49,741 bases of DNA from the NCBI GenBank assembly GCA_032718475.1, contig JAUCBJ010001891.1:1-49741 (forward strand), written 5' to 3'. This document shows positions 16,031 to 43,573 of this stretch, piece by piece. The first letter of the stretch is position 1, and each line of letters opens with the position of its first letter. The DNA is from Nemertoderma westbladi (taxonomy: Eukaryota; Animalia; Xenacoelomorpha). The notes beneath the pieces were generated by a model. That model had not been told where the DNA came from. It saw only the letters and a program-made list of their open reading frames with translations, and searched no databases. A program made the position numbers and the translations under genes.

Positions 16031-18493
16031 CTAACTGTCTTTATGTTTTTTTCTAGTTAGTAATTTAACTAAGTGGCTCTGGTTAGTTTCATTCAATAAT
16101 TCACAGAATACAATAAAGTCATCATAAGGTCTCCTTTTAATGGCTTCTATTAGTTCGCTGTTCCTTTGTAAACCAGTCGGCTGATATTTGATCTGCTCAA
16201 TAAGATTTTCAGTAAGAATATTTCTACTTCTCAATAGCGGTAACAATTCACTCAGCTCCATGTTATAAACCAGTTCAACTTTATTCCTCATAAGAATATT
16301 TTCAAATTCTACATCAATATTTCCTTTTATCATATCTACTAAATGTTGTTGGTTTGTTTGTGTTAAACTATCCATAAATACTTTCATAATGGACTCTGAT
16401 TTCCCTTTTAGAGATTCTATAATGGCTCGGCTCTTTAGTATTTTAGTTTCTCTTGTTTCTATAAACTGAATCTGATCATTGTTTAGTATAAAACTTTTTT
16501 CGATATATAGTAATAACTCAGTTGGTTCAAGTTTTTCTTCAATTTTTTTTGTTTCAACTTTTAAATATTCCCGATCCTTTGATTTAACTAAAAACCAAGT
16601 TTTATATTCCTGAGTTTCTATACTTGCATTATTCTCACAGGTAATTATTGGTTTACTCAAACAATCTGATAGTAGAATAAAGTGGATACAGGATTCATTG
16701 TGGCATTTATATAGGCCATGCCTTTCACATTTATATGAACAAGGACATGTTACTTTCAATTGAAAATCAACAATATTGTTTATTTTTCCAGCTGATATAA
16801 GTTCTCCCAAGCTGTCAACAATGTATTCTTTTACTCTGTTTGCAAAATCAGAATCTGGAGGACTTATAATATTTTTGTTGCTATCAATATTATCTTTAGG
16901 TTTCATAAGAACTTTTCTTACAATTTGAACTTTTATTCTAGAAAAATGCCTTGGAGACACATATAGAATTATATCGTGATCAACATCACAGTATATAACT
17001 ACAGACCGGTAGTAAAGAGTTGGTTCAGATTTAATATCTCCAATGAGATACGACCATTCTATAAGGCGTTTTACTAGTCGATAAAATAGACCCTCAGGTA
17101 AAAAACCATTAAAAGCAATAAAAAATTCAATATCATTTGCTTTAATAGGGTAAATAGGCTGATTGGCATTTTTAAGTCTACAAGGTACATAATATGATTT
17201 ATTCATTTTTGACTTTTTTAACAATGGTTCTGATTCGTTTCCATTACCTGGCACAGTTTCTCCTATTCTTTCACATATTAAATCAAAACGCTCTAGGATT
17301 TTTAACATAAAATTTTTTTTGAGTCCCATATTACCCCAGATATCGTCCAGTAGATCCCAGTGCAATATACCCTTGTCATCCAAATCCTCAAAATATTTCA
17401 AATTTTTCCAATTGATATGTTCTTTGACTGTAATTATACTGGCAAACATTGAACTTAACCACTCTGGTTTCAATATAATTGTATCACGCAACGATTCTTC
17501 ATCAAAATACATAATTCTACCTCTATCATGGTAAAACTCTAACATTGTCTTTAAACCGGGGTATTCAAATTCTACTTTTATTTCCTTTAACTTACATTCT
17601 AAATCTATAATATCAATATAAACGTCATCATTTTTAAGTAATTGAGTTACAAGTTTTTCAAATTTTAAATAATCCAAAGGAATTTCTTCCTTAAATTTGT
17701 CCATTTCTTTAACAATTTCTAGCTGTAAGTTTTGAAGTTCTTCATCTGAATCTGATCTTGCCTCTTTGCTATTTTCCACAGCAAATGCTGCTTTAACTAA
17801 AATATTGCAATGCATTGTGGACTTTAATAGTCGGAAAATTTCTATAAACTTTTTACGAGCTAAAATGTTCTGAGTTTCTGGATCTTCATGCAAACTGGCT
17901 TTCTTTGTTCCAACTAAGAATACTGGAGAACCAGAAATGTTTGCGCCACTTTCGGAATTATTTTTACCAAATGTAAATATATTGCGCAACCAAAAATCAA
18001 TAAATTCTATATTAGTCATGTCGCTATATATCTTATTTATATTCTCTTCATCGGCTCTGAATATAATGTTGGCTGTTTTATCAGCATCTTGGGTAAGATC
18101 AAAAACAACTATATAAATAGCCCGTCTACTTAGAAACATCTGATGGGTTGTGTAATAAATACATTGGCCACCAAAATCGAGGGATAGGCGGGACAATAGA
18201 CGGGACAATAGGCGGGACAATATGCGGGACAATGGGCGGGACAATAGGCGGACAATAGGCGGGACAATAGGCGTGACAATAGGCGGGACAATATGCGGGA
18301 CAATAGGCGGGACAATAGCCGGGACAATTGGCGGGACAATAGGCGGGACAATAGCGGGGACAATTGGCGGGACAACATGCGGTACAATAGGCGGGACAAT
18401 GGGCGGGACAATAGGCGGGACAATAGGCGGGGCAATAGGTGGGACTAGTACTACTACTACTTCTAGGATCGCCATGCTGCATTGCAGCTGCAT
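16031..18493 (-). CDS. Roco copy A: 5'-deleted ROC (G3 onward)-COR-Cys/His motif-2xCARD, with an open chimeric N-terminus made of LINE 3' UTR and 12-bp repeat; probable pseudogene
   Basis: 820-aa ORF. Roco similarity begins at DFGGQCIYYTTHQMFLSRRAIYIVVFDL (18180), then VFLVGTK, LEFYHDRGRIMYF..IILKPEWL and YYVPCRL. CARD-like ILMRNKVELVYNMELSELLPLLRSRNILT..FCELLNETNQSHLVKLL. No P-loop. Confidence 0.8.
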   Translation of the reverse strand: MQLQCSMAILEVVVVLVPPIAPPIVPPIVPPIVPPIVPHVVPPIVPAIVPPIVPPIVPAIVPPIVPHIVPPIVTPIVPPIVRLLSRPLSRILSRLLSRLLSRLSLDFGGQCIYYTTHQMFLSRRAIYIVVFDLTQDADKTANIIFRADEENINKIYSDMTNIEFIDFWLRNIFTFGKNNSESGANISGSPVFLVGTKKASLHEDPETQNILARKKFIEIFRLLKSTMHCNILVKAAFAVENSKEARSDSDEELQNLQLEIVKEMDKFKEEIPLDYLKFEKLVTQLLKNDDVYIDIIDLECKLKEIKVEFEYPGLKTMLEFYHDRGRIMYFDEESLRDTIILKPEWLSSMFASIITVKEHINWKNLKYFEDLDDKGILHWDLLDDIWGNMGLKKNFMLKILERFDLICERIGETVPGNGNESEPLLKKSKMNKSYYVPCRLKNANQPIYPIKANDIEFFIAFNGFLPEGLFYRLVKRLIEWSYLIGDIKSEPTLYYRSVVIYCDVDHDIILYVSPRHFSRIKVQIVRKVLMKPKDNIDSNKNIISPPDSDFANRVKEYIVDSLGELISAGKINNIVDFQLKVTCPCSYKCERHGLYKCHNESCIHFILLSDCLSKPIITCENNASIETQEYKTWFLVKSKDREYLKVETKKIEEKLEPTELLLYIEKSFILNNDQIQFIETRETKILKSRAIIESLKGKSESIMKVFMDSLTQTNQQHLVDMIKGNIDVEFENILMRNKVELVYNMELSELLPLLRSRNILTENLIEQIKYQPTGLQRNSELIEAIKRRPYDDFIVFCELLNETNQSHLVKLLTRKKHKDS
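18184..18444. repeat. 12-bp minisatellite (aataggcgggac)n, continuing as a remnant at 20436-20473
   Basis: About 21 tandem units; the same unit occurs at 41590-41808. Confidence 0.95.
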
Positions 18494-20435
18494 TTTTAAG
18501 AATGCTGTGCCGGCTTTTCAACAAAATTGCACAGCCACAACTCCCTATCACCCATGACATTGGCTATATCATGCGCATCTTCAAGGCCAGTGTCCTTTAA
18601 GATGCATCTCAAGAAATTCATGGGCTGTCCACCATGCTTATTCACTCCATGAGGCTGCCAAAGTACAAGATTATGCACTGCCTGGTCCTCACGGCGAAAG
18701 CAATATCCTGCAAAGCGGAGGCGATTTTGTTCTATTGTCAAGCTTGGGGGAACCAATGAGACACCTCCAATGTTATATAGTGTCTGGTTGGAGATATGTG
18801 CATTGTACTTGACACAATGAACCCGGCGTAGCATTCTTGCGAATGTGCCATCCTGAGATTTGGTGTCCTCAGACTGGAACTACCGCTGCTCTAAATAATC
18901 GGACCTTAAGTTTCCGATTAATTCTCGGTGACTTCCAAATCCTGGAAAGCCTATTCAAGGCTGCCCATGCCTTTCCCTTACGTATTCGAAGGTCCTCACC
19001 TGACTTCCGGATCCATGATCCCAGGTAACAGAAGTCGTCCACATGCTCAAGCATACCATCCTTTGAGCTTATGCTCATCCGATCAGAGACTTTCTGGGGA
19101 CTTTCAAAGATAACTGTCAAAATTTTGGTCTTTCTGGAGTTAATAAAAAGATCAACACTAGAAGCAGCATGTTCTAATGAGCTGGGGAGCCGTTGGGCTC
19201 CCTCTAATGATTCTGAGAGTACTCCTAAGTCATCAGCAAAGTCTAGATCAGTTAGGTACTTGGCAGGATTTCCACGACTTCTGGAGTCAGTACGTGGAGT
19301 TATCATCACCCCATCATCATTATGATGATCTAAGGACATGCGTAGAACATAGTCAACCACAATAATGAACAAGAATGGTGCAAGTGTGTCTCCTTGGAGG
19401 ACGCCCCATAACACTTCAAATGGTTCTGTGTCACCGTCAACAGTAGACACAAATGTTGTCGAACCAACGTATACTGATCTGATTGCTGCAATAATTTCAT
19501 CAGGAATCCCATATAATGAAAGTATGCTGAACATACGTGAGCGAGAGACTGAATCAAAGGCCTTGAAGAAGTCAACAAAGATAACAGCCAGATGCCTGTC
19601 TTTCATTTTTGATAATTCTTCAATTATCCTTCAAAGTGCCAAAATGGGCTCCATGGTCCCACGACCTTTACGGAACCCATTCTGATTTCCACGGAGTAGT
19701 CTCTCAATGGGATCCCTGATGCGATTTAATAGAATCCTAGTGTATAGCTTTGCAGCAATCGAGATCAATGAGATTCCCCGAAAAGAACCATAGAGTGTTA
19801 GGTTGCCCTTCTTGGGAACTGACACCAACTTATTTGTTTTCATTTCTTGTGGGACTCGTGTTGTTCGGTACATGTCTACTATGATGGGATATATGAGCTT
19901 TAAACACTCAGGTATTTTAAAGACCTCAGGGGGAACACCATCTACTCCACTGGCACGATTGGTCTTAATGCTCTTTGCAGCAGCATTCACTTCTGCAAAG
20001 GAGATATCGCCAATGGGAATATCTGGGAGTACAGACTCAGACACTTTTACTTCTATAAAGTTATCAGGCAATACCCTGTCATTATTGGGGAGCTTTTCAA
20101 AGTGGGCTTTCCAACCATTGAGGCGATCGGCTGGTGATTCAGCCTTGACCTTGGTGGTTGGTTGGCTTTTCCGCCCAGTAAGCAAATTGATCGATTTCCA
20201 TGCCTGGGATGATTGCCTGCTGTCGTCAGCATCATTGATGGCATCAACCTGTTGGTTTACTAGCTCCTGTAGATTAACAGAGTACTGCTTGTTCAGGGAC
20301 CTAGATGCAGCCTTAACTGCATTCTTTGCCGCTGTAGTCTGTTTGAGTCGGGACTCTTTCTGCGCCTTATGAAGGTCATTTCAGCACTTCTGAATTTTGT
20401 TGTCAGTCCAGGGGGCCCTTTTCCTGTTTCATTTG
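18445..20435 (-). mobile_element. RTE-clade non-LTR retrotransposon, 5'-truncated and degenerate (RT and C-terminus)
   Basis: FRGISLISIAAKLY, QNGFRKGRGT, FVDFFKAFDSV, GVLQGDTLAPFLF, DLDFADD and RLRFAGYCFR, split by stops and frameshifts. (GTA)n tail at 18445-18460. 11-bp TSD aataggtggga at 18434-18444 and 20436-20446. Confidence 0.93.
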
Positions 20436-20571
20436 AATAGGTGGGAAAATAGGCGGGACAATAGGGACAATATGTATTTCGTGGTTAGTTACATTTGAGA
20501 CAGAATTACACATTATACAAATTTCTCGTAAATTACTGAACTAAATTACTCAACTAAATTACTCAACTAAA

Positions 20572-23500
20572 TTACTCATTATCAGAAATATCTTGAAATA
20601 GATTTACCAAATGTCCCTGTTCTGTATCAACTAATCCGTCACAGAATATCTTAAAGTCACTATAAGGACGTTTTTTTAGTTGCTCAATAAGTTCGTTATT
20701 CTTTTCTGTATCAGTTGCCTTAGAATTAATATTCTCAATAACAAATTGGTTTAAAACGAATTTAGCTTGTAGGTATATAATTAGTTCTGGTAGAATAAGC
20801 ATTTCAGATAATTCATATTGCTTTTTTGTTAACATAATTTTGTGGTGGTGTCGGTCGAATTTAATTTCAGATTTAATGTCTTCTGAAAACAAAAATAATT
20901 CAGCTATATGTTCCTGTCCTGTCTCCATCAAACTATTACAGAATAGTTGGAAATCTTTGTAAGGTCGTTTCTTTATGAAGTTTACAAGTTCGCTGTTTCT
21001 TTCTATTGAAGTTGTCTTTGAATTAATTGATTGTACCATAAAATCATTCACAACAAATTTACTATATAAAACAATAAGCAATTCATCGAGTTCAATATTT
21101 TTTGCCAAGACATATTGAAGACGAGTCAGCATATATTGGTGTTGTCTATTAAAAGATACTTCCGTTTTTGAGTTTTCCAGAAATAAAAATAGTTCAGCTA
21201 AAGGTCTCTGATTGGTCACTTTCAGTCCCTCACAGAATATCAGAAACTCACTGTAACTACGACCTTTAATTTCATTAATTAGCAAATTGTTCCTATCAGC
21301 TGTTTTTCGTTCGGATTGTATTAAATCCACAACTGATTTTTTCAGAACAGATTCACTCTGTAAATATATCAATAGTTCGCCAATCTCTAAATCTTCAGCT
21401 AGTCTATGTTGTAGTTCATTGAGTTTGCTACAATGGAATGGTTCTATTTCTTGGGTTAATTTAGTTTCTGTAAACCATTTTTGATACTGGCTTGTTTCCA
21501 CTTTTAGACGACTTTGGTCACAAAGAACCTCATTATTTGTTAGACAATTCTCGAGGCAAAGAAAATGAATACAAGACATATCCCCACAATCGCTTAACTT
21601 GTGACTTACACAACATGCATTACAATAGCATCTCACTTTCAAACTAAACCCTATGTTACATTGCTTACCAATAAAATTCGTTAAAATTTCTTTTATTTGC
21701 TCTTTAAATCGAGTAGCTATTTCTCGGTCAGGACCTGAAATAGACTCAACTTTATGGTGAATCAAAATAATTGGTCTTCTTATTAATTGAACTTTTATCC
21801 TGTAAAGATGAGGCGGAGCCTTTTCAATAACAATTTCGTGATCTAAATCCAAATATATTTGACTAAATCTATGGAACAATTTTGGTTCAATTTCTCGGTC
21901 ACCATTTTTGCATAACACCATTCTATAGTGTGTTTTACCAACTTAAAGTATAAACTCTCTGGAAGGAAACCATCAAATTCTATATAAAATTCAACGTCAT
22001 TTTCTGTGATTGGAAATCCATCTATTTCCTCCATAGGTTTAAGTCTGCAAGGTACATAGTATGATGACATCATAGCAACACCCGTTGTTGGTGAAGTGTT
22101 TTTATTTGTAATTGCAGGAATTCTCTCACACAATAAATCAAATCGTTCTAGAATATTTAACACAAACAGAATTTTAGATGGTTCAGTAATATCCCACCAT
22201 ATATAATCAACAAGTTCCTTGTGTAATATTCCTCTATCGTCTAGATCCTTCCATAATTTAATATGTTCAGGTTTTATTTTGTCTACTACCGTTATTATTC
22301 TTTTAAACATACCGCTCAACCACTCTGGGCTCAATATAACTGTATCTCTCAATGATTCGTCATCAAAGTAAATTATTGTCCCTAAATCGTGGTGGAAATT
22401 CAACATTGTTTTCAAACCTGAACCTTCAAAAACAACTCCGATCTCCGTTAATAAATTATCCAATTATCCATTATTATCAATTAGTCCATCACATCAACAC
22501 AAATTTTATCACGAGCTAATAATTTAGTGACCAGCTGTTGAAACTTAAGATATTGTAAAGGTATTTCTTCCATAAATTTAACCATTTCTTTTACAATTTC
22601 TTTCTGTAGCGCTTCAAGTTCCTTATCACCAACAGACCTCAGTTCCGGATCATTCTCAATAGCAAAATAATTTCTAACAAGTTTTTTATACGACATTTTA
22701 TTTATAAAAGTTAAAATATTAGTGAATTGATTTCTTGCAAAACCAGTTTTTATTTTTGGATCGCATTTATTGGTTCCAACAATAAATACTGGAGGTGCAG
22801 TAGTTTCAGGAACGCAAAATAATTTGTTGCTAAATGTGAAAATATTACGGAACCAAAAATCAATAAAATCTATATTCTTCATATCACCATAAACTTTATG
22901 AATATTTTCATCTTCAGCTCCCACTATAATTTCAGCCTGATCAGAAAGTTCATGCGAAAGATTAAACACAACGATATAAATAGCCCGTCTACTTAGAAAC
23001 ATCTGATGGGTTGTGTAATAAATACACTGGCCACCAAAATCGACTATCTGTAGAGAAAAGCGACTGTCTTCCTCATTAAATTTAGCCAGAATATCTTGAG
23101 GTTTACCAGATAACAATATATCCTCTATACCTTTTGTGACTTCTGAAGGGATATCATATTTATTGTCCTCAAATTTTGATTCATATGGCGTTACGACTTT
23201 TCCGATATCAGATATATTCCCTCTTTCGCTATCTACTGAAATATCTTCTCTAATTTCCTTGCTGCTTTCTATTTTAACAGGCTTATCATAAGAACTGGTG
23301 CTTTTATTCATGTCTCTATCGCTATTTTCACCAGATATTACTGATAAAGTTGACTGGATGCCATCAGTGTATATTTTTTCACTGTCCACATTAGAAGCAT
23401 CTTCTTGAACTTTGAATTCTAGAACACTTTTTGCAACTTTCTTTGCAACAGCATTGTCTGGATCAGCCTCTAAAATATCAACATTCTTTAAATTAGTCCA

Positions 23501-23943
23501 GTCTGTGTGTTTATCAGTATCTATAACACAATTAGCCAATGAATCAATACCATCTGTTATTGGTTCATTAATATCAAACGGTTGACCAATAAGGGCCTTC
23601 TTCAAACTAGTTTTACCAGCCCTCTCTTGTCCCACTAACATTAACCGGGTTTTCAATATCCATGTAGTCCCTTTAGAAAGAGCTGCTTTATAAGCAGCCA
23701 ATGCTTCTGGGCCTCTCGCCAGTATCTCTAGTGGCAGTTTTTGTTCTTTAATATAATTAATTAAAAATTTTGGACGTTTCAGTGTATTTGATCCACTTAT
23801 ATTCATAATCATAAGTCCCATGTCTCTGAATTTATTAACAATTTCTATTGTTGAAATTTCATTTAAACCCCAAATACTAACCAGATTCTGGGTTGTTAGC
23901 TCAGAAATATCTGCATCCAGTCTAAAGTAAAGTTCTTTCTCTT
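20572..23943 (-). pseudogene. Roco copy B: partial winged helix-ROC-COR-Cys/His motif-3xCARD, disrupted and 5'-truncated
   Basis: ORFs 22481-23821 (GQERAGKTSL, TDGI, DFGGQ, VGTN), 21843-22463 (COR) and 20572-21921 (COR end and three ~84-aa CARD-like repeats). Lesions at ~22460-22485 and ~21907. Identity to copy C stops at 23943. Confidence 0.88.
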
Positions 23944-25198
23944 AAGTTCTTTTTTTTCTCTAGCTGCCTAGTGTAAATTCAGAAATTTGTCCAAAGATAT
24001 TTCTGTATTTCCTAAGTGTAAATAACTAAAACTATTCTCCGCTATGCAGCGTACGAAGTCCTTATTTTATTCTAAATACTATCATACATAAACTACATTT
24101 ACTCCTCAAATGTACTGGGTTGCGAACTAATTATTAGGTATTCCAGAATTTGTAACGCTAATTAGTTACGTTACTGGGCTACACTAAAGACAGCCTAAAT
24201 ACCGTATTATTGGAGCTAACAGTAATTTAACAAGCATAAATAGAAAACAGAAACAATCAAGGTACGGTATATAGCACCTATCTAAAACATTACACATAAA
24301 TAGCATTAGCATTAGCGTTAGCATAGCATTAGCATAAGCGTAAACGGCTAAGGTCACCCCAGATCAATGTGATCTTTCTACCTAAACCTAGCTAGCCTAA
24401 TAGCAAATCTGAGAGACAAGATCTAGGTCGCCTTGCCCCTTACAACCTTAATGGCGACCGGCCCTCGGTCCTAAACTTAATTCAGCCAACCTGCCAACCG
24501 CAGCCACCAGCCCCGCCGGTAGTGCCGTGCATTGGATCCTCCAACTTCTCCCGTCGCTTCCAAACAGTGAGCCCGCGGCGCCTACCCCTACACTAGCCCA
24601 ACATGTTAAAGAGGGCAGTTACCGTACAGCCGTAACGGCGCAAACATAGTAAAAACCAATCAGACAGTCGAAGGAAACAAACGTTGATTTTGGTTCACTA
24701 CATTGCGGCAATTATATTTGCAATCAGAAATATAAAATCAACAGTCAGACTAAGCAGTAATCATATTCAAAAGTCACAAATGTATGAAGAAAAGCAGCAA
24801 CATTTACAACCAACGGAAGTGCAAAAAACGAAGAATAAAGATGGCTACTGCTAAACTGTAGGAATGACGCAAAGTCTAAATTTGCTCACATAATCAGGCG
24901 ACATCCAGGGTTGTCTCAGCTGGATTTTCGACCAACCAGTGGGCAAAACTCAATTTAGGATCATTAATGCACGTAATCGCCTCAACTTAATTTGGCGATT
25001 ATTAAAAGCACAATTTATGCGTTATTTTAGCACAAACATCGATTTATAGGGATATGTAAATAAAATTAGCACAAATGTATTAGATTCGATAGATATTGAA
25101 AAACGGCAAAATTCATATTTTGTGACGTGATTTTGTGATTTTGTGTTATTGTGACGTCACAAGTATAGCTACCCCCCCCCCCCCCCCCCCCCCCCCGG

Positions 25199-25363
25199 GA
25201 GCTACACTGTCTACCTATCAGCAGAAGGATTGATTTTAAGATCGCAACACTAGTTTATAAGTGTCTACACGGTTTGGCGCCAGACTACCTAGCGAATCTA
25301 CTCGATAAATATGAGCCTTGTCGTACCCTGGGATCACGGAATCTGAATTTATTGTATGAACCT
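25199..25363 (+). mobile_element. L2/CR1-group LINE ORF2 C-terminal fragment
   Basis: Manual translation ELHCLPISRRIDFKIATLVYKCLHGLAPDYLANLLDKYEPCRTLGSRNLNLLYEP matches the LHWLP..RI.FKI....YK.LHGLAP.YL motif. Confidence 0.85.
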
Positions 25364-27078
25364 TGTTTATTTATTTATTGTATGTTATTGTATGTTATCA
25401 GCTTGTAAATTTATGGTCAATATAGGTCTAATATACGTTGATATAATGACACAAATGTAAAATATATATTGTATATTTTTCCACTTGAGTTTATCGTTAA
25501 AATAAAAGTTATAACTAATTTAATAAAATTATACATTTATAAATTACAGGCAAAATTAATTGGACTATAAATAAATAAATTAATCAAAAGTCTTTCAGAA
25601 ATTTATAAATATATTTTTAGAAAACATTACTTACTTAACTAAATATAGAATAATAACTGGAACACAATTCAATTAAATCACATCAATTCAACAGAATATA
25701 CAAATAAATATTAAAAAGTAATGAATAGGGTTAGCTCACAATAATAATGCTACAATAATTATTAGCTGAACATCTGACTTGGTTTCCTGTCACCGTTCCA
25801 TATCTGTGTTACATAATGAATGTAAGTATAGGAACGAACCCCCTGTGTATCCAATACAGAACCCCGAGGTTTACCTAGTCTGTAACCAATCCACTGATCG
25901 CTGTAATTAATGCTAAATATATCCTTTATAAGGATATAAATAGCTGAAGTGGTGATTTTGGGTGCAGAATGGAGTGCGATTATCCAAACAGAATTGATAG
26001 TTTAGTAACACTGACGGACGTACAATGACATAGGGTTGTCGGGTAACTTTAGGGAAACCACAACCAGCCACAGTGGGACCGAGATAATTCGAATAGATTA
26101 GATAAACATATAACATTATAGTAGTTCTGAATGGGAACCAACTCCGTTACACTCATTGTAAACCAATGTTTTATTGGTTAAAGAATATAACCAATGGGAA
26201 CCTCTGAGTTATAATTAAAACGTTTTATTAGTAGATGGTCAAGGTTTGTGTCTACCAAAGGGACGTAGCAGATACACAGGTATTACTCGAATACTCAATA
26301 CAGATAATATGGGACCAAAATCGAACAAAAACTAATTAAAATGAAAATCAATTGAGGGAAATTTATATCATTTATGTATTTATATCTGATATAAATTAAT
26401 TATTTTAGATCTAATTTTGGCGAAAATTGCGAGCTCTCCCTATGCAAAATAGTCATTAAATCTTTGTTATTATTTATAAAATTAATATAATTAAAGGTAT
26501 AAAATTCCCATAATATAAATTATTACATAAACCTATTTATAATACTGGCCCTCAACATCAATACTATTAAATATTTTCGGTAACTGAATATAATATTCTG
26601 TAAGATACGGGATTGAACTGGTGTTATTCAATCAATTGATCTGATCTTCTTTTGAATACTTAGGAGAGTTTGAGTTTAGAACATCGGAACTACTGTCTGT
26701 CTGTAGGGTTGGATTACTTTATTGGGATGTTATTTGTTAATTTGTTGATTTGTTATAATTAAGTTTCTCTTCTCTGATATTCCAATATTATATATATAAT
26801 AATCTGCTTCTGTTTTCTTATAATCCAAATGGCATCTTGTTTGGTTTGCGATTATTCTGTAAATATAGAAATGAAATAGGTCCATAAAATTTGCATATTA
26901 TTGAAACTTTTTTTTATGTTACATTTTTTTATATAATATTTAATTTATTTCGAGTATGCACCAAACAATACCCCCCACCAACAGACAACATGTATTAATT
27001 GACCAAGTAGAAAAGGGCGGGAAATTTAAAACTATCAGTATGATAGGCCCTAGTGATATAAGGCGGGAAATTTAAAAC

Positions 27079-29470
27079 GATGTCAACATTGAAACTAATT
27101 CAATACAACTAAATAGTACAGTAATAATTTTAAGGAGCATTTCTAACATTCTAAAAGGAGAAATTTCTTCCTGACTGAAAAACAAAATTAGTTCTAGAGG
27201 CCTTTGGGACTCAATGTAACTCACCTTAATATATCGAAGATTCAACTCCTTAAATAAATCGGATTGTTGGTCTAGTTGGAATATAAGATATGTTGCCGAA
27301 ATCTCAATGTTAAATAATAATCTGTCAGAGTTGAACTGAAGTTGTTGATTTAGAAGTCAAGAGTTGTTACTTGTCTGGAAAATAGCAAAACGAAAAAATA
27401 GTATTATGATTTCATATTAAAAATCCCTCCCAGCCCAGTGTAAAAATTGAAATTTGCATCAGCAATATATATTTAAATTTGACGTTCGTACGAGTTAGTA
27501 ATTCATTCATATGAGTTTGTAAATAGTATTTCTTTCTTTCATGTCCCTTTAGGGGATACGTAAATAAAGATTAGCTTATCTAACAATGAATTTGAATGAA
27601 TTTGAGAGACTTCTCCGTGGAAATCAGAATGGGTTCCGTAGAGGTCGTGGGACCATGAAGCCAATTTTGGCATTGAAGAGTTATCAAAAAAGAAAGACAG
27701 GCATCTGCCTGTTATCTTTGTTGACTTCTTCAAGGCCTTTGATTCAGTCTCCCGCTCACGTATGTTCAGCATACAGTACTTTCATTATATGGGATTCCTG
27801 ATGAAATTATTGCAGCAATCAGATCAGTATACGATGGTTCGACAACATCTACTGTTGACGGTGACACAGAACCATTTGAAGTGTTATGGGGCGTCCTCCA
27901 AGGAGACTCACTTGCACCATTCTTGTTCATTATTGTGGTTGACTATGTTCTACGCATGTCCTTAGATCATCATAATGATGATGGGGTGATGATAACTCCA
28001 CCTACTGGCTCCAGTAGTCGAGGAAATCCTGCCAAGTACCTAACTAATCTAGACTTTGCTGATGACTTAGGAGTACTCTCAGAATCACTAGAGCGAACCC
28101 ATCGGCTCCTCAGATTATTAGAACAGTTTGCTTCTAGTGTTGGTCTTTTTATTGACTCCAAAAAGACCACAATTTTAACATTTAACTTTGAAAGTCCTCA
28201 GCATGTCTCTGACCGGTTGAGCAAAAGCTCAAAGGATGGTATGCTTGAGCGTGTGGACGTCTTCTGTTACATGGGAGTATGGATCCAGAAGTCAGTTGAG
28301 GACCTTCGAATACCTAAGGGAAAGGCATGGGCAGCCTTGAATAGGCTTTCCAGGATTTGGAAGTCAACGAGAATTAATCGGAAACTTAAGGTGCGATTAT
28401 TTCGAGCAGCAGTAGTTCCAGTACTCCTCTACGGGAGTACTTGTTGGGCTCTAACTGCTGAGGACACCAAACAACAAGAATGCTACGCCGGGTTCGTTTT
28501 ATAAAGTACAATGCACACATCTCCAACCAGACATTATATAACATTGGAGGTTCTTTCAATGGTTCCCCCAAGCTTGACACTAGAACAAAGTTGCCTCCGC
28601 TTTGCAGGACATTGCTTTCGCCGTGAGGACCAGCCAGTGCATAATCGTGTGCTTCGGCATCCTCATGGAGTGAATAAGTATGGTGGACAGCCCATGACTT
28701 TCTTGAGAAGCATCTTAAAATATACTGGCCTTGAAGATGCGGATGATCTAGCAAATGTCATGGGTGATAGGGAGTTGTGGCGACGCAATTTTGTCGTCAA
28801 GCAGGCACAACATTCTTAAAAATGCAGCTGCAATGCAGCATGCCAATCCTAGTAGTAGTATCCGAAGAATTTCTAACGTTCTAACCAGAAATGTGTGAGA
28901 AATAGTTGTGGGTGTTGGTTTTTCAACTCACCTGAATATATCGAAGCTGCACCACCAAATAGGTGGGGTGATATAGTTTATGTGCTGCTGGCTGTTCTGA
29001 GAATTTGAGCTAATTTCATTGAGTTATAGATTTAGAAACATTCTAGATAGTTGTTGTCTGAAATATAACAAAAATTAAATATTATGATTTCATATAAATA
29101 TTTTCATTAGCTAATCTAACAGATTAGTTTAACAAACTATGTGGAACTTAATAAACTCTAGTCTGCTTTTGAATCTTAATAGCAAAAACCAATACCGATT
29201 ATTAACACGTTAACGTTATTTTTTTACGTTTAATTTTAAGTTGTTTTAAAGTATAATATGTTGTTTGCTGCAATTTTAAGTTCATATTGTCGACATTTAT
29301 AATTTTTCGAGTTTTATATTTTACACCCAGCTGCTATACTTACTCATTGAATTCACAAATTGTGTTTCTTTTTGCAGCAGATTTAATTTATAAATAATAA
29401 ATTAGGAATAATCAATGTCATTTAATACAGAATTGAAGCTAAACATCAGCTGGAGACAACGATCTGACAA
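27079..29470. repeat. Second copy of the duplicated exon-bearing block (paralogue of 10795-11780), interrupted by an RTE LINE
   Basis: Direct alignment by eye; splice-like sites are retained (actcacc at ~27220 and ~28927, tgtctg at ~27372 and ~29055). Confidence 0.85.
27601..28860 (+). mobile_element. RTE-clade LINE fragment of the same family as 18445-20435, in opposite orientation
   Basis: RGNQNGFRRGRGT, GVLQGDSLAPFLF and NLDFADD; same 3' UTR (cattcttaaaaatgcagctgcaatgcagc) and (AGT)n tail; frameshifted. Confidence 0.93.
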
Positions 29471-30375
29471 ACGCCGGTCTTTATGTTACAATAACTACCA
29501 CCTGTATCAACCACCCTCCATGAACGCCGGTCTTTATGTTACAATAACTACCACCTGTATCAACCACCCTCCATGAACGCCGGTCTTTATGTTACAATAA
29601 CTACCACCTGTATCAACCACCCTCCATGAACGCCGGTCTTTATGTTACAATAACTACCACCTGTATCAACCACCCTCCATGAACGCCGGTCTTTATGTTA
29701 CAATAACTACCACGTGTATCAACCACCCTCCATGAACGCCGGTCTTTATGTTACAATAACTACCACCTGTATCAACCACCCTCCATGAACGCCGGTCTTT
29801 ATGTTACAATAACTACCACCTGTATCAACCACCCTCCATGAACGCCGGTCTTTATGTTACAATAACTACCACGTGTATCAACCACCCTCCATGAACGCCG
29901 GTATTTATGTTACAATAACTACCACCTGTATCAACCACCTTCCATGAACGCCGGTCTTTATGTTACAATAACTACCACCTGTATCAACCACCCTCCATGA
30001 ACGCCGGTCTTTATGTTACAATAACTACCACCTGTATCAACCACCTTCCATGAACGCCGGTCTTTATGTTACAATAACTACCACCTGTATCAACCACCCT
30101 CCATGAACGCCGGTCTTTATGTTACAATAACTACCACCTGTATCAACCACCCTCCACGAACGCCGGTCTTTATGTTACAATAACTACCACCTGTATCAAC
30201 CACCCTCCATGAACGCCGGTCTTTATGTTACAATAACTACCACCTGTATCAACCACCCTCCATGAACGCCGGTCTTTATGTTACAATAACTACCACCTGT
30301 ATCAACCACCCTCCATGAACGCCGGTCTTTATGTTACAATAACTACCACCTGTATCAACCACCCCCCATGAACGC
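29468..30375. repeat. Minisatellite, 53-bp unit, ~17 copies, homologous to the 49-bp array
   Basis: Unit gaacgccggtctttatgttacaataactaccacctgtatcaaccaccctccat. Confidence 0.97.
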
Positions 30376-32175: not shown

Positions 32176-32444
32176 CGGTGAATGTTTTTTTGTTGTAAGA
32201 TTGGTAGTAAGACGTTCAAGGAGACAGTTCATGCGTTAGTAAAACCTGACCAGTAATTAAGTTCAATTTCAGTTCCCAGATAGGGGTTCCTAGTGCCTAC
32301 AGGTAATTATTGTACTTACCAGTAATTATAGTTCCATTTAAGTTCTCAGAATGCGGTTCCAAATCTAACGTAACGTATAGAGTCTTTTATTAATTCCTGA
32401 ACGATACCAGCTTCAAAGTTGTTTCAAAGATCTGCAGGTTTAGG

Positions 32445-35400: not shown

Positions 35401-36182
35401 TTCTGTTAGAGTTTCACAGTCTGGCAGTCTTCTGTTAGAGTTTCACAGTCTGACATTCTTCTGTTAGAGTTTCACAGTCTGGCAGTCTTCTGTTAGAGTT
35501 TCACAGTCTGGCAGTCTTCTGTTAGAGTTTCACAGACTGACAGTCTTCTATTAGAGTTTCACAGTCTGGCAGTCTTCTGTTAGAGTTTCACAGTCTGACA
35601 GTCTTCTGTTAGAGTTTCACAGTCTGGCAGTCTTCTGTTAGAGTTTCACAGTCTGGCAGTCGTCTGTTAGAGTTTCACAGTCTGGCAGTCTTCTGTTAGA
35701 GTTTCACAGTCTGGCAGTCTTCTGTTAGAGTTTCACAGTCTGACAGTCTTCTGTTAGAGTTTCACAGTCTGGCAGTCTTCTGTTAGAGTTTCACAGTCTG
35801 ACAGTCTTCTGTTAGAGTTTCACAGTCTGGCAGTCTTCTGTTAGAGTTTCACAGTCTGACAGTCTTCTGTTAGAGTTTCACAGTCTGGCAGTCTTCTGTT
35901 AGAGTTTGACAGTCTGGCAGTCTTCTGTTAGAGTTTCACAGTCTGGCAATCTTCTGTTAGAGTTTCACAGTCTGGCAGTCTTCTGATAGAGTTTCACAGT
36001 CAGGCAGTCTTCTGTTAGAGTTTCACATTCTGGCAGTCTTCTGTTAGAGTTTCACAGTCTGGCAGTCTTCTGTTAGAGTTTCACAGTCTGGCAATCTTCT
36101 GTTAGAGTTTCAGGGTCTGGCAGTCTTCTGATAGAGTTTTACAGTCTGGCAATCTTCTGTTATAGTTTGGCAGTCTTCTGAT
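32445..36182. repeat. Minisatellite, 29-bp unit, ~128 copies
   Basis: Unit agagtttcacagtctggcagtcttctgtt with scattered variants. Confidence 0.97.
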
Positions 36183-36957
36183 TCAGAATTTTATCCCATC
36201 ACTTTTCTGAAAGAGTTTCCAGTCCGACGGATTTCGCATAGATTTTCGTTTCTGGCAGTTTCCGAATAGAATAGTTTCTACCATGGTGTTGTACTTCGTC
36301 TCCACTTCTCTACAAATAAGATGATAAATTGTTAAATTTTATCGCGTCTATCATCTAACACTACTAATATTTATCACTCAGTTTTTTCAAATTTTTCAAC
36401 CACAAAAAATGAATTAATTAAAAAAAATTCCTAATGCAATTTAAGTCAACAACTGTGCTATTATTAATTCAAACAACTGAAGTACTAACTAAACCAGAAG
36501 GTGGAACATAAAAACTGGTAACAATAAATTAAATATTATATTTATTTTGCATGTAATCATTGATCGACAGATGGTCTTTGCTGACCAAGTTTTTGTGATA
36601 TTCTCGAGAAAAAAGGCCAGGAAGTGACACAAAGTATGAATTCTTACCGTCAATCTGTGTAATTTGTTAGCTTGAGCTAAGTGAAAGCCTTCAACTGATA
36701 GGTAAATCTTTCCAGTCTGCTGACCACTATATAAAACTTATAGTTTATCGTTTATTTAAATTACTAGCTATTATTGAATCTACAATTAAGGTTTTAATGA
36801 CACCTGACTTTATATTTAATAATTTTAATAATATAACCACTTTAATAGCAGTCTGTATCGTCTTCAATTAATTAGAGTTCTTATACAAAATTCAATTTTA
36901 TTAATTAGATGTTTTTATAAAACTATAATTAGAATTGTCTACAATGCATTTCCAGAC

Positions 36958-37830
36958 ACATTGATTGGTAACATCAATAACAACAGCTACATTATATTGA
37001 TTGGCAATGTCTATAACAGCAGCCTCTCCACCGGTTGATTGGTAACATCTATAAGAACAGCTGCATTACATTGATTGGCAATGTCTATAACAGCAGCCCC
37101 TCTACCTTGATTGGTATCGTCTATAACAACAGCTACATTACATTGATTGCCAATGTCTATAACAGCAGCCTCTCCACCGGTTGATTGGTAACATCTGTAA
37201 CAACAGCTACATCACATTGATTGGCAATGTCTATAACAGCAGCCTCTCCACTGGTTGATTGGTAACATCTGTAACAACAGCTACATTACATTGATTGGCA
37301 ATGTCTATAACAGCAGCCTCTCCACCGGTTGATTGGTAACATCTATAACAACAGCTACATTACATTGATTGGCAATGTCTATAACAGCAGCCTCTCCACC
37401 GGTTGATTGGTAACATCTGTAACAACAGCAACATCACATTGATTGGCAATGTCTATAACAGCAGCCCCTCCACCGGTTGATTGGTAACATCTGTAACAAC
37501 AGCTACATTACATTGATTGGTAACATCTATAACAACAGCTACATCACATTGATTGGCAATGTCTATAACAGCAGCCTCTCCACCTGTTGATTGGTAACAT
37601 CTATAACAACAGCTACATTACATTGATTGGCAATGTCTATAACAGCAGCCTCTCCACCGGTTGATTGGTAACATCTATAACAACAGCTACATTACATTGA
37701 TTGGCAATGTCTATAACAGCAGCCTCTCCACCGGTTGATTGGTATCGTCTATAACCCCAGCAGCCTCTCCACCTTGATTAGTATTATCTATATCAGCAAC
37801 TTCATCAGGTTGATCGGTAATGTCTACAAT
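36958..37830. repeat. 36+38-bp (74-bp higher-order) repeat overlapping the 3' end of Roco copy C
   Basis: Alternating ttgattggtaacatctataacaacagctacattaca and ttgattggcaatgtctataacagcagcctctccaccgg. Diverged in-frame units encode the last ~40 aa. Confidence 0.92.
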
Positions 37831-40800
37831 ATCCGCATCATAACCTTTGGTAGCTTCCTCTAGAGTATCAGCTAAATGATGTTGGTTGGTGACCTTGAGA
37901 CATGTACAAAAAGATAGAAAATCCTTGTAAGATCTTTTCATTACTGCGTTTATAAGTACAACATTTTTATCATCTATCGATTCTTTACATTCGATTATTT
38001 CTATGATAGATTTACTTATAACTTGTCTGCTAACAAGAAGCTGTGCGACAAGTTTAGTTTGTTCTAAATTATTCATTAACATATATTTATACTTTGTTAG
38101 AATATCAGGGAACATTTGGTCTTCCTTTTTGATTTTTCCGTGCAAAATTTCAACCAAAAGCGGTTGATTGGTTACATATAATGCTTCAATAAATAGTTTG
38201 TAATTAATTTCTGATCCCCATCTAATTGACTCCAACAAAATCTTATTCTTACTCAACAAATTCGACTTAGATTCAATAACAGCTAAAACTTCCTTTGATA
38301 TAGCCCCCTTACTTGCTAAGTATACAAGTAATTTTGAGATTTCCATTCTATCAATAAGGTCGTCTCGGTTAGTTGTAATGTTTAACCAATGTGAGCTAAA
38401 TCTCCCAACAACAGGGAATTTTCCACTAATATATCGACTTCTAACAGAGTTATTAAATTGACATTCAAGAAAATCATTTGATAGAATATCAGCCAGTTTT
38501 ACAAAGTGAAAACATCCTTCTTCATTGCAGTCAAGTAATCTATGTTGATCGCATTTAGCATTACATTCACATTTTATTTCGAACTCAAATGAAATATTTT
38601 TAAATCTCATTTGGGTAATAATTTCCTTCAATGAAGTATTAATAAAATGATTTACTTTATTCACAATATCCGGATCTGGTGCAAGTTTTCTTTCAGTTTG
38701 TTCATCGCCCGAACTCAACATCTCAGATCTAATTACCTGAACTTTAATCCAATTTAATGAAATAGAAGATCTTTCCAAAATTACCTGATGATTAAAATCT
38801 AAAAATATTTGAGCAACTCTGTGGTAAAGTTTAGGTTGAATTACTCTATTACCTACAATGTAGGACAAATCAATAGTTCTCTTAATTAAACGGTAGTACA
38901 ATCCTTGCGGTAAGAAACTCTTGAATATAATATAAAATTCAACTTTACATTGTCTTGGTGTGAATGGAGTATATCTAACAGATTTAAGGCGGCAAGGTAC
39001 ATAATAAGCCAACTTTACATCATCTTGCAATGTTCTTTCGGTTCTTGGTAAAACTCGTTCACATAATAAATCAAAACGTTCTAGAATATTCAACATAAAT
39101 TGTTTTTTATCAAGAACGCCTTCCCACAGATAATTAAGGAGTTCTTCATGTAATATACCATTGTTATCCAGGTCCTTCCAGAAAGTAAAATGTTGTTTCT
39201 TTATTTTGTCTTTAACAGTTATTATTTTGGTAAACATTCCACTCAACCATTCTGGGCTCAGTATAACAGTATCCCTTAGAGATTCATCGTCAAAGTAAAT
39301 TATTCTACCCAAATCGTGGTAAAATTCTAACATGGTTTTCAAACCAATGTTATCCATTTCTACATCAATATCCTTTAATTTAATTTCTAGCAAGTCAATG
39401 TCAATATAAACTTTACCATCCATGATTAATTGAGACACAAGTTGGTCAAATTTTAGATATTGCAAAGGTATTTCCTCCTTAAAATTTACCATTTCCTTGA
39501 CAATATCGGCCTGTAAATTTTCAAGTCCTTTCTCTCCACTATTTATAATCGCTATATTATTCTCTATAGCAATGTAATCTTTAATTAGATTATCTGTATA
39601 TGAAGATTTACCCAAATGGGTCTTAATCCTTTCAAATATTTTACTTGCTATTACAGATTGAGTATCAGGATCAGCATGTAAGCTGCCTTTATGAGTTCCA
39701 ACTACAAAAACAGGTGGACAAGAATTTACTTCTAGTTTTGTACCAAATGAATAAATATTTTTTAACCAAAATTCAATAAACTCAATATTCTTAATCTCAC
39801 CGAAAACAAACTCATTAATATTGTTTTCATCAGATCTGAAAATAATATCTGGAGTTTTTTCAAGATTTTCCAAGAGATTAAATACAATTATATAAATAGC
39901 TCGTCTACTCAAAAATATCTGATGGGTTGTGTAATAAATACATTGGCCACCAAAATCGACTATCTGTAGAGAAAAGCGACTGTCTTCCTCATTAAATTTA
40001 GCTAGAATATCTTGAGGTTTACCAGATAACAATATATCCTCTACTCCCTTTGTGATGTTGTCAGGAATATCATTTTCCATAGCTTCCCTTATGGGTTGCC
40101 TAGAAAGATTTTCTTCAATAGGTTTACTTTCATTCTCAGCAGTTAATAAAGTTGTACTAGATTTTTTAGTTATTTTACTTCTATTATATTTTGACTTTAA
40201 ACCAGGTAATACTGAAACTACCCGCCTCCACAAACTATCCTTTTGAACTTTCTCAGCACCATAACTTGAAGTTGAAGTAGCAATCTTATGTTGATCATCA
40301 GTAGAAGATGAAGATGTTGCAACTGAGGGTGTCGCAATACCAATACCCATTGCTGAAGTTCCAGAAATATCAGACTCATCACCTGCAACTTGTTTTCTTT
40401 CTAGAACTGTTTTTGCAATTTCCTTAGTAATGACGACATCAACAGCTGTCTCAGGCCCTTCTTTCATGTTGGTCCAATCTGTGTTTTGTCCGGTATTTAT
40501 AATACAGTTAGCAGATGAGTCAATACCATCAGTTATTGGTTCATTTATATCAAACGGTTGACCAATAAGGGACTTCTTCAAACTAGTTTTACCAGCCCTC
40601 TCTTGTCCCACTAACATTAACCGGGTTTTCAGTATCCATGTAGTCCCTTTAGAAAGAGCTGCTTTATAAGCAGCCAATGCTTCTGGGCCTCTCGCCAGTA
40701 TCTCTATTGGCAGTTTTTGTTCTTTTATATAATTAATTAAAATTTTTGGAAGTTTCAGTGTATTTGATCCACTTATATTCATAATCATAAGTCCCATGTC

Positions 40801-41181
40801 TCTGAATTTATTAACAATTTCTATTGTTGAAACTTCATCTAAACCCCAAATACTAACCAGATTCTGGGTTGTTAACTCAGAAATATCTGCATCCAGTCTA
40901 AAGTAAAGTTCTTTCTCTTTATCTGAAAGAACATCAACAGTAGATATAATTATATTAGTTATCTTACCCTGGAGTGGTTTATTTATGGGACCAACCCATC
41001 CAATATACTCAACAATTTCCTTTAATTCTTCAGCTTTCTTCAATATACTTTCCACCTGTTTGATACTTTTCTTTCTTTCAGTTTGATCTTTACTGAACGT
41101 ATCAATTATTCTAATTGTGCCGCCCTCATCTCCTGTATAAAGTATAATTATCGTTAAGCTGTCTTTCCACTGAGTTGACAT
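37711..41181 (-). CDS. Roco copy C, intact: APAF-1-like winged helix-ROC GTPase-COR-Cys/His motif-2xCARD-acidic repeat tail (1156 aa)
   Basis: Uninterrupted ORF. G1 RLMLVGQERAGKTSL, G2 TDGI, G3 IVDFGGQ, G4 VVGTHK, G5 IENN; COR LEFYHDLGRIIYF..VILSPEWL..YYVPCRL; two CARD-like repeats ending ALYVTNQPLLVEIL and CLKVTNQHHLADTL. Confidence 0.92.
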   Translation of the reverse strand: MSTQWKDSLTIIILYTGDEGGTIRIIDTFSKDQTERKKSIKQVESILKKAEELKEIVEYIGWVGPINKPLQGKITNIIISTVDVLSDKEKELYFRLDADISELTTQNLVSIWGLDEVSTIEIVNKFRDMGLMIMNISGSNTLKLPKILINYIKEQKLPIEILARGPEALAAYKAALSKGTTWILKTRLMLVGQERAGKTSLKKSLIGQPFDINEPITDGIDSSANCIINTGQNTDWTNMKEGPETAVDVVITKEIAKTVLERKQVAGDESDISGTSAMGIGIATPSVATSSSSTDDQHKIATSTSSYGAEKVQKDSLWRRVVSVLPGLKSKYNRSKITKKSSTTLLTAENESKPIEENLSRQPIREAMENDIPDNITKGVEDILLSGKPQDILAKFNEEDSRFSLQIVDFGGQCIYYTTHQIFLSRRAIYIIVFNLLENLEKTPDIIFRSDENNINEFVFGEIKNIEFIEFWLKNIYSFGTKLEVNSCPPVFVVGTHKGSLHADPDTQSVIASKIFERIKTHLGKSSYTDNLIKDYIAIENNIAIINSGEKGLENLQADIVKEMVNFKEEIPLQYLKFDQLVSQLIMDGKVYIDIDLLEIKLKDIDVEMDNIGLKTMLEFYHDLGRIIYFDDESLRDTVILSPEWLSGMFTKIITVKDKIKKQHFTFWKDLDNNGILHEELLNYLWEGVLDKKQFMLNILERFDLLCERVLPRTERTLQDDVKLAYYVPCRLKSVRYTPFTPRQCKVEFYIIFKSFLPQGLYYRLIKRTIDLSYIVGNRVIQPKLYHRVAQIFLDFNHQVILERSSISLNWIKVQVIRSEMLSSGDEQTERKLAPDPDIVNKVNHFINTSLKEIITQMRFKNISFEFEIKCECNAKCDQHRLLDCNEEGCFHFVKLADILSNDFLECQFNNSVRSRYISGKFPVVGRFSSHWLNITTNRDDLIDRMEISKLLVYLASKGAISKEVLAVIESKSNLLSKNKILLESIRWGSEINYKLFIEALYVTNQPLLVEILHGKIKKEDQMFPDILTKYKYMLMNNLEQTKLVAQLLVSRQVISKSIIEIIECKESIDDKNVVLINAVMKRSYKDFLSFCTCLKVTNQHHLADTLEEATKGYDADIVDITDQPDEVADIDNTNQGGEAAGVIDDTNQPVERLLL

Positions 41182-41182
41182 C

Positions 41183-41535: not shown

Positions 41536-41589
41536 ACATCTCAAACTTTCTTATAGTTAATCCAAAATTACGCATTATAGCAAGGATAA

Positions 41590-43570: not shown

Positions 43571-43573
<3 letters not shown>

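What the first reader, a model, noticed from the sequence alone, without database searches (positions are those of the whole stretch)
16031..41181. Tandem cluster of intronless Roco GTPase genes with 2-3 C-terminal CARDs: a candidate innate-immune/cell-death switch family
Seen: three same-strand paralogues with ROC motifs, COR, a Cys/His motif and then 2 (A), 3 (B) or 2 (C) CARD-like repeats. No kinase, LRR, ankyrin or introns are visible in the ORFs. One copy is intact and two are damaged. Established: ROC-COR is a GTP-dependent dimerisation module (LRRK2, DAPK1, MFHAS1), and CARDs recruit caspases or adaptors on oligomerisation (APAF-1, NOD2, RIG-I). Invertebrate Roco expansions with death-fold domains are known, so the novelty of this exact order is unverified. 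Inference: an apoptosome- or NLR-like device in which a Roco GTPase rather than a STAND ATPase drives CARD clustering, evolving by birth and death.
Basis: partly seen in the sequence, partly recalled or inferred. Interest (0 to 1): 0.85.

Follow-up and report, generated by a model that had tools for sequence, protein, structure and literature searches.

The report
Roco GTPase genes with tandem CARDs
Three related genes in an invertebrate animal join a Roco-type GTPase to two or three CARD death folds and likely act as nucleotide-controlled scaffolds for immune or cell-death signalling; similar pairings occur in other invertebrates, but this family also carries a likely APAF-1-type winged-helix piece at its front.

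Summary
Three minus-strand paralogues carry Roc-COR and 2, 3 and 2 CARDs, all 7 at or above Pfam's cut-off; the fold matches LRRK/CtRoco and the APAF-1 CARD.

Corrections: (1) 'Intronless' is unproven; A's reading frame starts at a good splice acceptor. (2) B's two frameshifts look haplotype-specific: contigs from other runs are shorter by exactly 20 and 2 bases there. (3) A and B begin with a likely APAF-1-type winged helix (0 of 2000 shuffles; two broader profiles were weak). No NB-ARC core lies in the window. (4) The order Roc-COR-CARD is not unique: bivalve, amphioxus and brittle-star proteins have it, apparently by convergence. Roco plus CARD is published for Trichoplax (PMC4104024), and this scan noted a Trichoplax cluster earlier. 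(5) In the one Roco for which I read such data, GTP binding breaks the dimer (PMC6337361), so CARD clustering more likely occurs without GTP.

Verdict: a real, lineage-specific family inside a known, domain-shuffling class of invertebrate Roco proteins. An immune or cell-death role is inferred from architecture only. New variant of a known kind.

The parts
37711..41187 (-). Gene A: open frame of 1158 aa stop to stop; winged-helix-like segment, Roc with insert, COR, Cys/His motif, 2 CARDs, satellite-derived tail. Coding exon probably starts at 41132.
41133..41160 (-). Candidate 3' splice site of A (branch-point-like TTAAC, pyrimidine tract, AG at 41134-41133; phase 1)
   Evidence: sequence; resembles the acceptor at 26857 used by the X4 joint; not shown spliced
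41185..41530 (.). MITE-like element with 84-bp inverted ends (90% alike) directly upstream of A's only in-frame ATG
40723..40971 (-). Likely APAF-1-type winged-helix domain of A (residues about 70-152), no ATPase core in front of it in the window
   Evidence: for; weak or blank
39499..40722 (-). Roc GTPase of A: G1 at 40608-40582, G3 at 39957-39946; disordered variable insert about 40458-40084
38461..39498 (-). COR-A, COR-B and the Cys/His motif (38571-38461) of A
38137..38382 (-). A CARD 1 (34.2 bits)
37855..38100 (-). A CARD 2 (30.4 bits)
20572..23943 (-). Gene B: partial winged helix, Roc, COR, Cys/His motif, 3 CARDs; likeness to A stops abruptly at 23943
22455..22495 (-). B lesion 1: 20-bp insertion (local duplication) with frameshift; contigs of X1 and X3 (one sample) across it have 20 gap letters
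21900..21915 (-). B lesion 2: 2-bp insertion with frameshift; contigs of X1, X2, X3 (two studies) across it have 2 gap letters
20596..21429 (-). B CARDs 1-3 (21429-21193, 21129-20896, 20835-20596; 26.1, 33.5, 23.9 bits)
16031..18180 (-). Gene C: 3' part only (from the G3 strand on), 715 codons without a stop; COR, Cys/His motif, 2 CARDs (16564-16325, 16300-16052)
18184..20472 (.). 12-bp satellite (20472-20436 and 18445-18184) with a non-LTR reverse-transcriptase fragment inside it; stands where C's 5' half would be
24688..29060 (-). Separate spliced, apparently polyadenylated transcript without a long ORF between A and B (exon-like pieces 29057-28931 and 27374-27225, then 26856 to about 24688); an RT fragment sits at 27602-28860
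   Evidence: (joint 26856/27225 with GT-AG ends on the minus strand; poly-T loose end at 24688, run X4)

Best explanation
These are three members of a lineage-specific, multi-copy family of kinase-less Roco GTPases with two or three C-terminal CARDs, which likely work as nucleotide-gated scaffolds that would cluster their CARDs to recruit a CARD-bearing caspase or adaptor in innate immunity or cell death. SHOWN: the domains, intact G motifs in A and B, purifying selection on Roc, COR and CARDs, one clade for A, B and C, and recent sequence exchange between the 5' parts of A and B. INFERRED from the tree: descent from the conserved NHR-Roc-COR-death-TIR gene, with the death-TIR tail replaced by CARDs and the NHR head by an APAF-1-type winged-helix piece. 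INFERRED by analogy with CtRoco and LRRK2: the protein cycles between a GTP-bound monomer (CARDs apart) and a GDP-bound or empty dimer held by COR; the dimer would present 4 CARDs (A, C) or 6 (B) side by side and seed CARD-CARD assembly, as tandem CARDs do in RIG-I and NOD2 (recalled). The input is unknown; candidates are a module on an unseen upstream exon, or the disordered, fast-changing insert within Roc.
For: Domains. G motifs. dN/dS 0.18-0.47 in Roc, COR and CARD comparisons, 0.83 in the insert; dS between A and B is 0.03 in the winged helix, 0.23-0.24 in two Roc tracts and 0.9-1.8 elsewhere. A+B+C one clade with support 100, sister to NHR-Roc-COR-death-TIR orthologues at SH-aLRT 96 (46 rows). 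Homologues carry death folds, TIR, caspase, HEPN, GT4, NACHT, NB-ARC or RLR helicase. Multi-copy hint: in run X2 single A-type contigs have depth 460-1020 and B-type contigs 165-445, most near 200-250; the tracts shared by A and B reach 10-20 times B's level in X1 (summed depth is no copy number). Run X4, which shows a GT-AG joint and a poly-T end, holds pieces of A and B. Nucleotide cycle: PMC6337361 section 10.
Against: No binding, GTPase, cell-death or challenge data. No caspase or adaptor gene was recognised among the 12 ORFs scanned in the window. The sister position rests on a long stem (0.92), a quick LG+G4 tree and rows I chose; the 201-row FastTree did not resolve it as firmly. The 5' end of the gene is unresolved, so a sensor or other exon may change the picture. 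The direction of the switch is taken from a bacterial Roco and is still debated in the review itself. X4 is listed as 'DNA?', so expression is a hint. The winged helix passed only the third of three profiles tried.
Confidence: 0.6

Rival explanations
1. The ORFs are the last large exon of longer genes, and the full protein is NB-ARC-winged helix-Roc-COR-CARDs: an APAF-1/Roco fusion with both an ATP and a GTP switch that would form a ring.
For: Phase-1 acceptor at 41133. APAF-1-type winged helix directly before Roc. An NB-ARC-Roc-COR protein exists in Actinia tenebrosa (XP_031560399.1) and NACHT-Roc-COR proteins in cnidarians.
Against: An APAF-1-type ATPase-core profile finds nothing in 1569 open frames of the window (best E 5), including the 8.6 kb upstream of A. 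The 50 residues before the winged helix do not match the helical domain that precedes it in these ATPases by my reading of the alignments. B shares only part of the winged helix.
Confidence: 0.15
2. The genes are GTP-insensitive decoys or dominant-negative CARD sinks (like CARD-only proteins) that dampen caspase activation; truncated copies such as C could do so too.
For: No enzymatic effector in the ORFs. C keeps 715 open codons with both CARDs though it lacks G1 and G2. CARDs are diverged, 21-49% identical to each other.
Against: G motifs are intact and Roc is under purifying selection in A and B, which a pure decoy would not need. C's open tail is also explained by a recent break.
Confidence: 0.12
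3. A non-immune role: trafficking, cytoskeletal or developmental signalling like other Roco proteins, with CARDs as generic docking domains.
For: Folds match LRRK1 and LRRK2. PMC4104024 links Roco expansions to chemotaxis and phagocytosis as well as immunity. The sister gene looks like a conserved orthologue across bilaterians.
Against: The sister gene itself carries death and TIR domains; relatives carry conflict-type effectors; tandem copies with polymorphic lesions and gene conversion fit immune gene families better.
Confidence: 0.1
4. The cluster is decaying debris (processed or duplicated pseudogenes) in a repeat-rich region.
For: Satellites and retroelement pieces surround all three copies; B and C are broken in this sequence; the coding part is a single exon.
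Against: A is open for over 1100 codons; dN/dS is well below 1; B's lesions are missing from other runs; RNA-like run X4 holds A and B pieces.
Confidence: 0.03

Closest known systems
Trichoplax adhaerens ROCO repertoire (Civiero et al. 2014, PMC4104024; passages and section 5 part 1 of 2 read)
   Same: Expanded, largely kinase-less Roc-COR genes 'surrounded by' CARD and death domains, TPR, LRR and AAA ATPase; Roc-COR proposed as a nucleotide-dependent dimerisation device.
   Different: The figure is not held, so I could not see whether any Trichoplax CARD is C-terminal or tandem. No winged-helix piece is mentioned in the text I read.
'Neuralized PATS1' NHR-Roc-COR-death-TIR proteins (e.g. Saccoglossus NP_001161599.1; Aplysia Roco-TIR genes in PMC9334734, passages read)
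   Same: Best sequence hits (about 33% identity), same Roc insert and Cys/His motif, sister clade.
   Different: NHR head and death-TIR tail instead of winged helix and tandem CARDs; conserved orthologue rather than a tandem family.
Unstudied Roc-COR-CARD proteins: Sinanodonta KAL3889163.1 (2 CARDs), Branchiostoma C3ZT52 (1 CARD), Amphiura XP_072045430.1 (CARD_2)
   Same: CARD placed C-terminal to Roc-COR.
   Different: Each sits in its own lineage's Roco clade; AU tests reject grouping with A, B, C (p 1.6e-70, 1.5e-88, 0.031). Different N-termini (propeller-like by eye, CARD-like by eye, Ras).
DAPK1
   Same: Roc-COR followed by a C-terminal death fold; linked to cell death (PMC6337361 figure legend).
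   Different: DAPK1 has a kinase and one death domain (ankyrins recalled); here no kinase and 2-3 CARDs.
APAF-1 / NB-ARC apoptosome
   Same: CARD fold match (rmsd 1.3 A) and a likely APAF-1-type winged helix.
   Different: No NB-ARC ATPase or WD40 found in the window; CARDs are C-terminal and tandem; the switch is a Roco GTPase.

Membership tests
Roco (Roc-COR) GTPases | Roc domain with G1-G5 motifs | tested here: met
   A and B: Pfam Roc above cut-off, motifs conserved. C lacks G1 and G2 in this sequence.
Roco (Roc-COR) GTPases | COR domain directly after Roc | tested here: met
   Pfam COR-A in all three; Foldseek to CtRoco RocCOR and LRRK1/2 at E about 1e-17.
Roco (Roc-COR) GTPases | GTP binding and hydrolysis; nucleotide-dependent monomer-dimer cycle | not testable with these tools
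   Needs biochemistry.
CARD death-fold proteins | Six-helix CARD fold and profile match | tested here: met
   7 of 7 repeats at or above Pfam cut-off; model of A helical with pLDDT mostly 70-90 in the CARDs; APAF-1 CARD TM 0.86.
CARD death-fold proteins | Homotypic CARD-CARD recruitment of a caspase or adaptor | not testable with these tools
   No partner identified; no genome held.
LRRK / DAPK1 / MFHAS1 subfamilies | Kinase and/or LRR/ankyrin domains | tested here: inconclusive
   None in the ORFs, and the frames end in stops after the CARDs, so no C-terminal kinase; upstream exons are unresolved.
NHR-Roc-COR-death-TIR ('neuralized PATS1') orthologues | N-terminal NHR and C-terminal death plus TIR domains | tested here: not met
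   CARDs and no death or TIR match at the C-terminus; no NHR match in the ORFs. Sister group only.
APAF-1-like AP-ATPases (NB-ARC STAND) | NB-ARC ATPase core | tested here: inconclusive
   Not found in 1569 frames of the window; could lie in exons outside the window or be split in small exons.
APAF-1-like AP-ATPases (NB-ARC STAND) | Winged-helix domain after the ATPase | tested here: inconclusive
   APAF-1-type profile 9.1 bits, 0 of 2000 shuffles and 0 of 1775 control windows reach it; atlas look-alikes are STAND winged helices at 0.82-0.86; broad profiles 57 and 24 of 1000; Pfam blank; no usable fold. Likely, not proven.

The most novel reading that the evidence does not exclude
The family is an APAF-1/Roco chimera: a Roco GTPase has taken over apoptosome parts (an APAF-1-type winged helix in front, tandem CARDs behind), and either replaces the NB-ARC ATPase as the switch that fires an initiator caspase or, through an unseen upstream exon, works beside it in one protein with both an ATP and a GTP switch. 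It would be a GTP-gated apoptosome or inflammasome equivalent, one of several that invertebrates evolved independently.
Probability: 0.2. Interest if true: 0.8.

Novelty: new variant of a known kind. Interest (0 to 1): 0.5.

Why it matters
Kinase-less Roco proteins with death folds are widespread in invertebrates, yet the papers I read describe them only from sequence. Gene A is a compact case: one GTPase switch and a CARD output that standard caspase or reporter assays can read. It could show which nucleotide state of Roc-COR is the signalling one, a question the review PMC6337361 still calls open for LRRK2. The repeated, independent gain of C-terminal CARDs suggests that Roc-COR is a general alternative to STAND ATPases in animal immunity. 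The winged-helix piece, if confirmed, would record exchange of parts between the two switch families.

Tried and rejected
No whole genome is held, so paralogues could not be counted. No RNA holder was listed. Laying X4 and X2 on 37830-49741 did not show A's 5' joint: repeats filled the cut tables; X4 cover falls upstream of A, which I do not count as evidence. A second candidate acceptor at 40923 was rejected because an X4 contig runs through it unbroken (40586-40997). Homologue searches with the CARD region and the N-terminal region alone found nothing; the metagenome scan with the N-terminus found nothing. PDB sequence searches with these two regions gave no significant hit. The one plasmid hit of the N-terminus (E 4, Nostoc) has no Pfam family and was a chance match; following it up led nowhere. 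Two broad NB-ARC winged-helix profiles were weak (57 of 1000 and 24 of 1000 shuffles as high), and BLASTP against the single best APAF-1-like protein found nothing. The known NB-ARC-Roco protein P0049 also scored near zero on the winged-helix profiles, so they are insensitive. The single-sequence fold of the N-terminus had pLDDT 37 and its structure search was uninformative. The complex job on two copies of COR gave 'no answer'. The idea that the small exons upstream of B encode LRRs was dropped: all frames stop early, and the transcript seems to end before B. Literature searches that did not turn up this architecture; the library lacks most subscription journals, including the Marin Roco papers (recalled, not seen).
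Full report
WHAT IS THERE. The window is AT-rich animal DNA full of satellites and retroelement pieces. No genome is held for it; its best protein matches are from marine invertebrates. Three related reading frames lie on the minus strand: A (37711-41187, 1158 aa stop to stop), B (20572-23943, three frames) and C (16031-18180). Pfam finds Roc, COR-A and CARD. Scanned singly, all 7 C-terminal repeats (2, 3, 2) reach the CARD cut-off. The AlphaFold model of A from a 68-row alignment has mean pLDDT 72, with Roc-COR and CARDs well modelled and residues 1-147 and the insert 272-368 not. Foldseek matches LRRK1, LRRK2 and CtRoco at E about 1e-17, the APAF-1 CARD at rmsd 1.3 A over 86 residues, and RIG-I and MDA5 tandem CARDs more loosely. 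The G motifs are intact in A and B, and the Cys/His motif is shared with most of 64 homologues, so it is a family trait.

STATE OF THE COPIES. C is cut inside its G3 strand by a 12-bp satellite that encloses a reverse-transcriptase fragment; its 5' half is not in the window, and its remaining 715 codons are open. B has a 20-bp and a 2-bp insertion relative to A and C. Contigs from public runs that span these places show exactly 20 gap letters (X1 and X3, one sample) and 2 gap letters (X1, X2, X3; two studies) with few other differences (pieces 5, 6, 11, 19, 20). The table does not place the gaps, and a near-identical paralogue cannot be excluded, but the simplest reading is that other haplotypes lack these lesions. 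B's likeness to A stops at 23943, partway into the N-terminal segment. dN/dS is 0.18-0.47 for Roc, COR and CARD comparisons and 0.83 for the insert. Synonymous distance between A and B is a mosaic: 0.03 in the N-terminal segment, about 0.24 in two Roc tracts, 0.9-1.8 elsewhere, which points to recent gene conversion. Contig depths hint at further copies elsewhere, though the tool warns that they are no copy numbers.

INTRONS AND EXPRESSION. The Roc-COR-CARD part is a single exon. 'Intronless' does not follow. A's frame has a branch-point-like motif, a pyrimidine tract and AG at 41134-41133, much like the acceptor at 26857 that run X4 uses. The one in-frame ATG (41181) has a weak context and touches an 84-bp inverted repeat. 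The joint itself was not seen. No run is on record as RNA. Run X4, guessed as DNA, shows a joint that skips a 368-base GT-AG stretch and a poly-T loose end, so it behaves like RNA; it holds pieces of B with 8-10 differences over 520-640 bases and pieces of A. I take this as a hint of expression.

Residues about 70-152 of A, most of them shared with B, looked to me like the winged helix of APAF-1 (recalled). The ESM atlas lists only STAND winged-helix families among named look-alikes, at 0.82-0.86, which is lead level. Two broad profiles from 29 cyanobacterial NB-ARC proteins were weak (57 and 24 of 1000 shuffles as high). I then took the top NB-ARC hit, confirmed it as APAF-1-like (E 3e-47 to APAF-1), gathered relatives and built a 22-row profile. 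A's N-terminus scores 9.1 bits; 0 of 2000 shuffles and 0 of 1775 windows of other Roco proteins reach that, and A is the top frame of 1569 in the window (E 0.68 there). This was the third profile tried, Pfam and folding gave nothing, so I call it likely. The matching ATPase core is not in the window (best E 5). An NB-ARC-Roc-COR protein exists in a sea anemone.

RELATIVES. Two searches gave 229 distinct homologues (the second lists the best 150 of 5597). Domains were read from precomputed Pfam for 88, from my scans for 89 of the other 141 (top five families shown in two of these), and from a profile of the window's CARDs for all 229. The same Roco core is fused to death domain, DED, TIR, caspase, HEPN, GT4, OTU, Macro, NACHT, NB-ARC, Bcl-2 and an RLR helicase. 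A C-terminal CARD was found in 3 of 229, a lower bound: Sinanodonta KAL3889163.1 (two CARDs), Branchiostoma C3ZT52 and Amphiura XP_072045430.1. In a 201-row FastTree (of 238 hits) and a 46-row IQ-TREE of rows I chose, A, B and C form one clade; in the second it is sister to the conserved NHR-Roc-COR-death-TIR orthologues (SH-aLRT 96, long stem, quick LG+G4 search). AU tests, run after I had seen the trees, reject joining them with each of the three other CARD-tailed proteins (p 1.6e-70, 1.5e-88, 0.031). The order Roc-COR-CARD therefore arose more than once.

HOW IT LIKELY WORKS. Shown: an intact Roco switch tied to tandem CARDs, kept by selection, in a family that turns over and exchanges sequence. 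Inferred: Roc-COR cycles between monomer and dimer with nucleotide. The review PMC6337361 (passages and section 10 read) reports CtRoco as mainly monomeric with GTP and dimeric when empty, with COR at the dimer interface, and calls the mechanism debated. On that model the GDP-bound or empty dimer, not the GTP state, would bring four or six CARDs together and seed recruitment of a CARD caspase or adaptor. That tandem CARDs nucleate such assemblies is recalled from RIG-I and NOD2. The input is unknown. I put this at 0.6; rivals are an NB-ARC-Roco fusion through an unseen exon (0.15), a decoy (0.12), a non-immune role (0.1) and debris (0.03).

WHAT IS KNOWN. PMC4104024 (passages and section 5 part 1 of 2) describes at least 17 Trichoplax Roco genes with CARD, death, TPR, LRR and AAA domains; its figure is not held, so the CARD position is unseen. 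PMC11378527, PMC9334734 and PMC5094078 (passages) describe Roco expansions or Roco-TIR/death genes as candidate immune genes in brown algae, Aplysia and anemones. Passages of PMC12373286 and PMC2575513 do not mention Roc. Eight searches did not turn up a Roc-COR-tandem-CARD family or a winged-helix-Roco fusion; the library lacks most subscription journals, and I looked at no supplements. This scan noted a Trichoplax Roco-CARD cluster before (e1-7319092) and nothing like this sequence. The exact 1156-aa protein is not in the 15-billion collection.

VERDICT. A real feature and a true Roco and CARD protein family; not a member of LRRK, DAPK1, MFHAS1 or the NHR-Roco orthologues as far as the visible exon goes, and not shown to be an APAF-1. 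It is a new variant of a known, domain-shuffling kind. Interest 0.5: tractable and probably unstudied, with one odd feature (the winged helix) that could raise it.

Noticed in passing
window 1-10794: BEL/Pao-type LTR retrotransposon with LTRs 99.9% alike (1-1166 and 9629-10794), so very recent. It has gag (DUF1759) and protease but no reverse transcriptase or integrase core among its ORFs of 100 aa or more, and an extra 260-aa ORF (8315-9097) without a Pfam match.
   Followed up: partly
window 24688-30375 and 10791-14139: A block of 49/53-bp satellite plus two small related exon-like pieces follows both A and C, which suggests tandem duplication of a gene-plus-spacer unit. One copy is seen spliced and with a poly(A)-like end in run X4 and has no long ORF: a possible multi-copy non-coding RNA.
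   Followed up: partly
window 18455-20380 and 27602-28860: Two copies (89% alike) of a non-LTR retrotransposon fragment with RVT_1 and DUF6451; one sits inside the 12-bp satellite, the other in an intron-like position of the small transcript.
   Followed up: no
window 18184-18445, 20436-20472, 41592-41809: The same 12-bp satellite stands at C's break, just after B's stop and upstream of A; it may belong to a mobile element that drives rearrangement in the cluster.
   Followed up: no
window 23944-24300: Sequence upstream of B's 5' break is multi-copy and has a boundary near 23983 in other contigs, next to CTAG; possibly the end of a Helitron-like element (the label is recalled).
   Followed up: no
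window 37711-37826: A's last 40 or so codons and its stop are formed by the 74-bp satellite.
   Followed up: no
proteins P0028, P0049, P0106, P0125, P0164, P0200: Striking Roco fusions among homologues: CARD-RLR helicase-Roc-COR-death (Amphiura XP_072025888.1), NB-ARC-Roc-COR (Actinia XP_031560399.1), Roc-COR-caspase (Lingula, Exaiptasia), Bcl-2-Roc-COR-caspase (Owenia CAH1786849.1).
   Followed up: no
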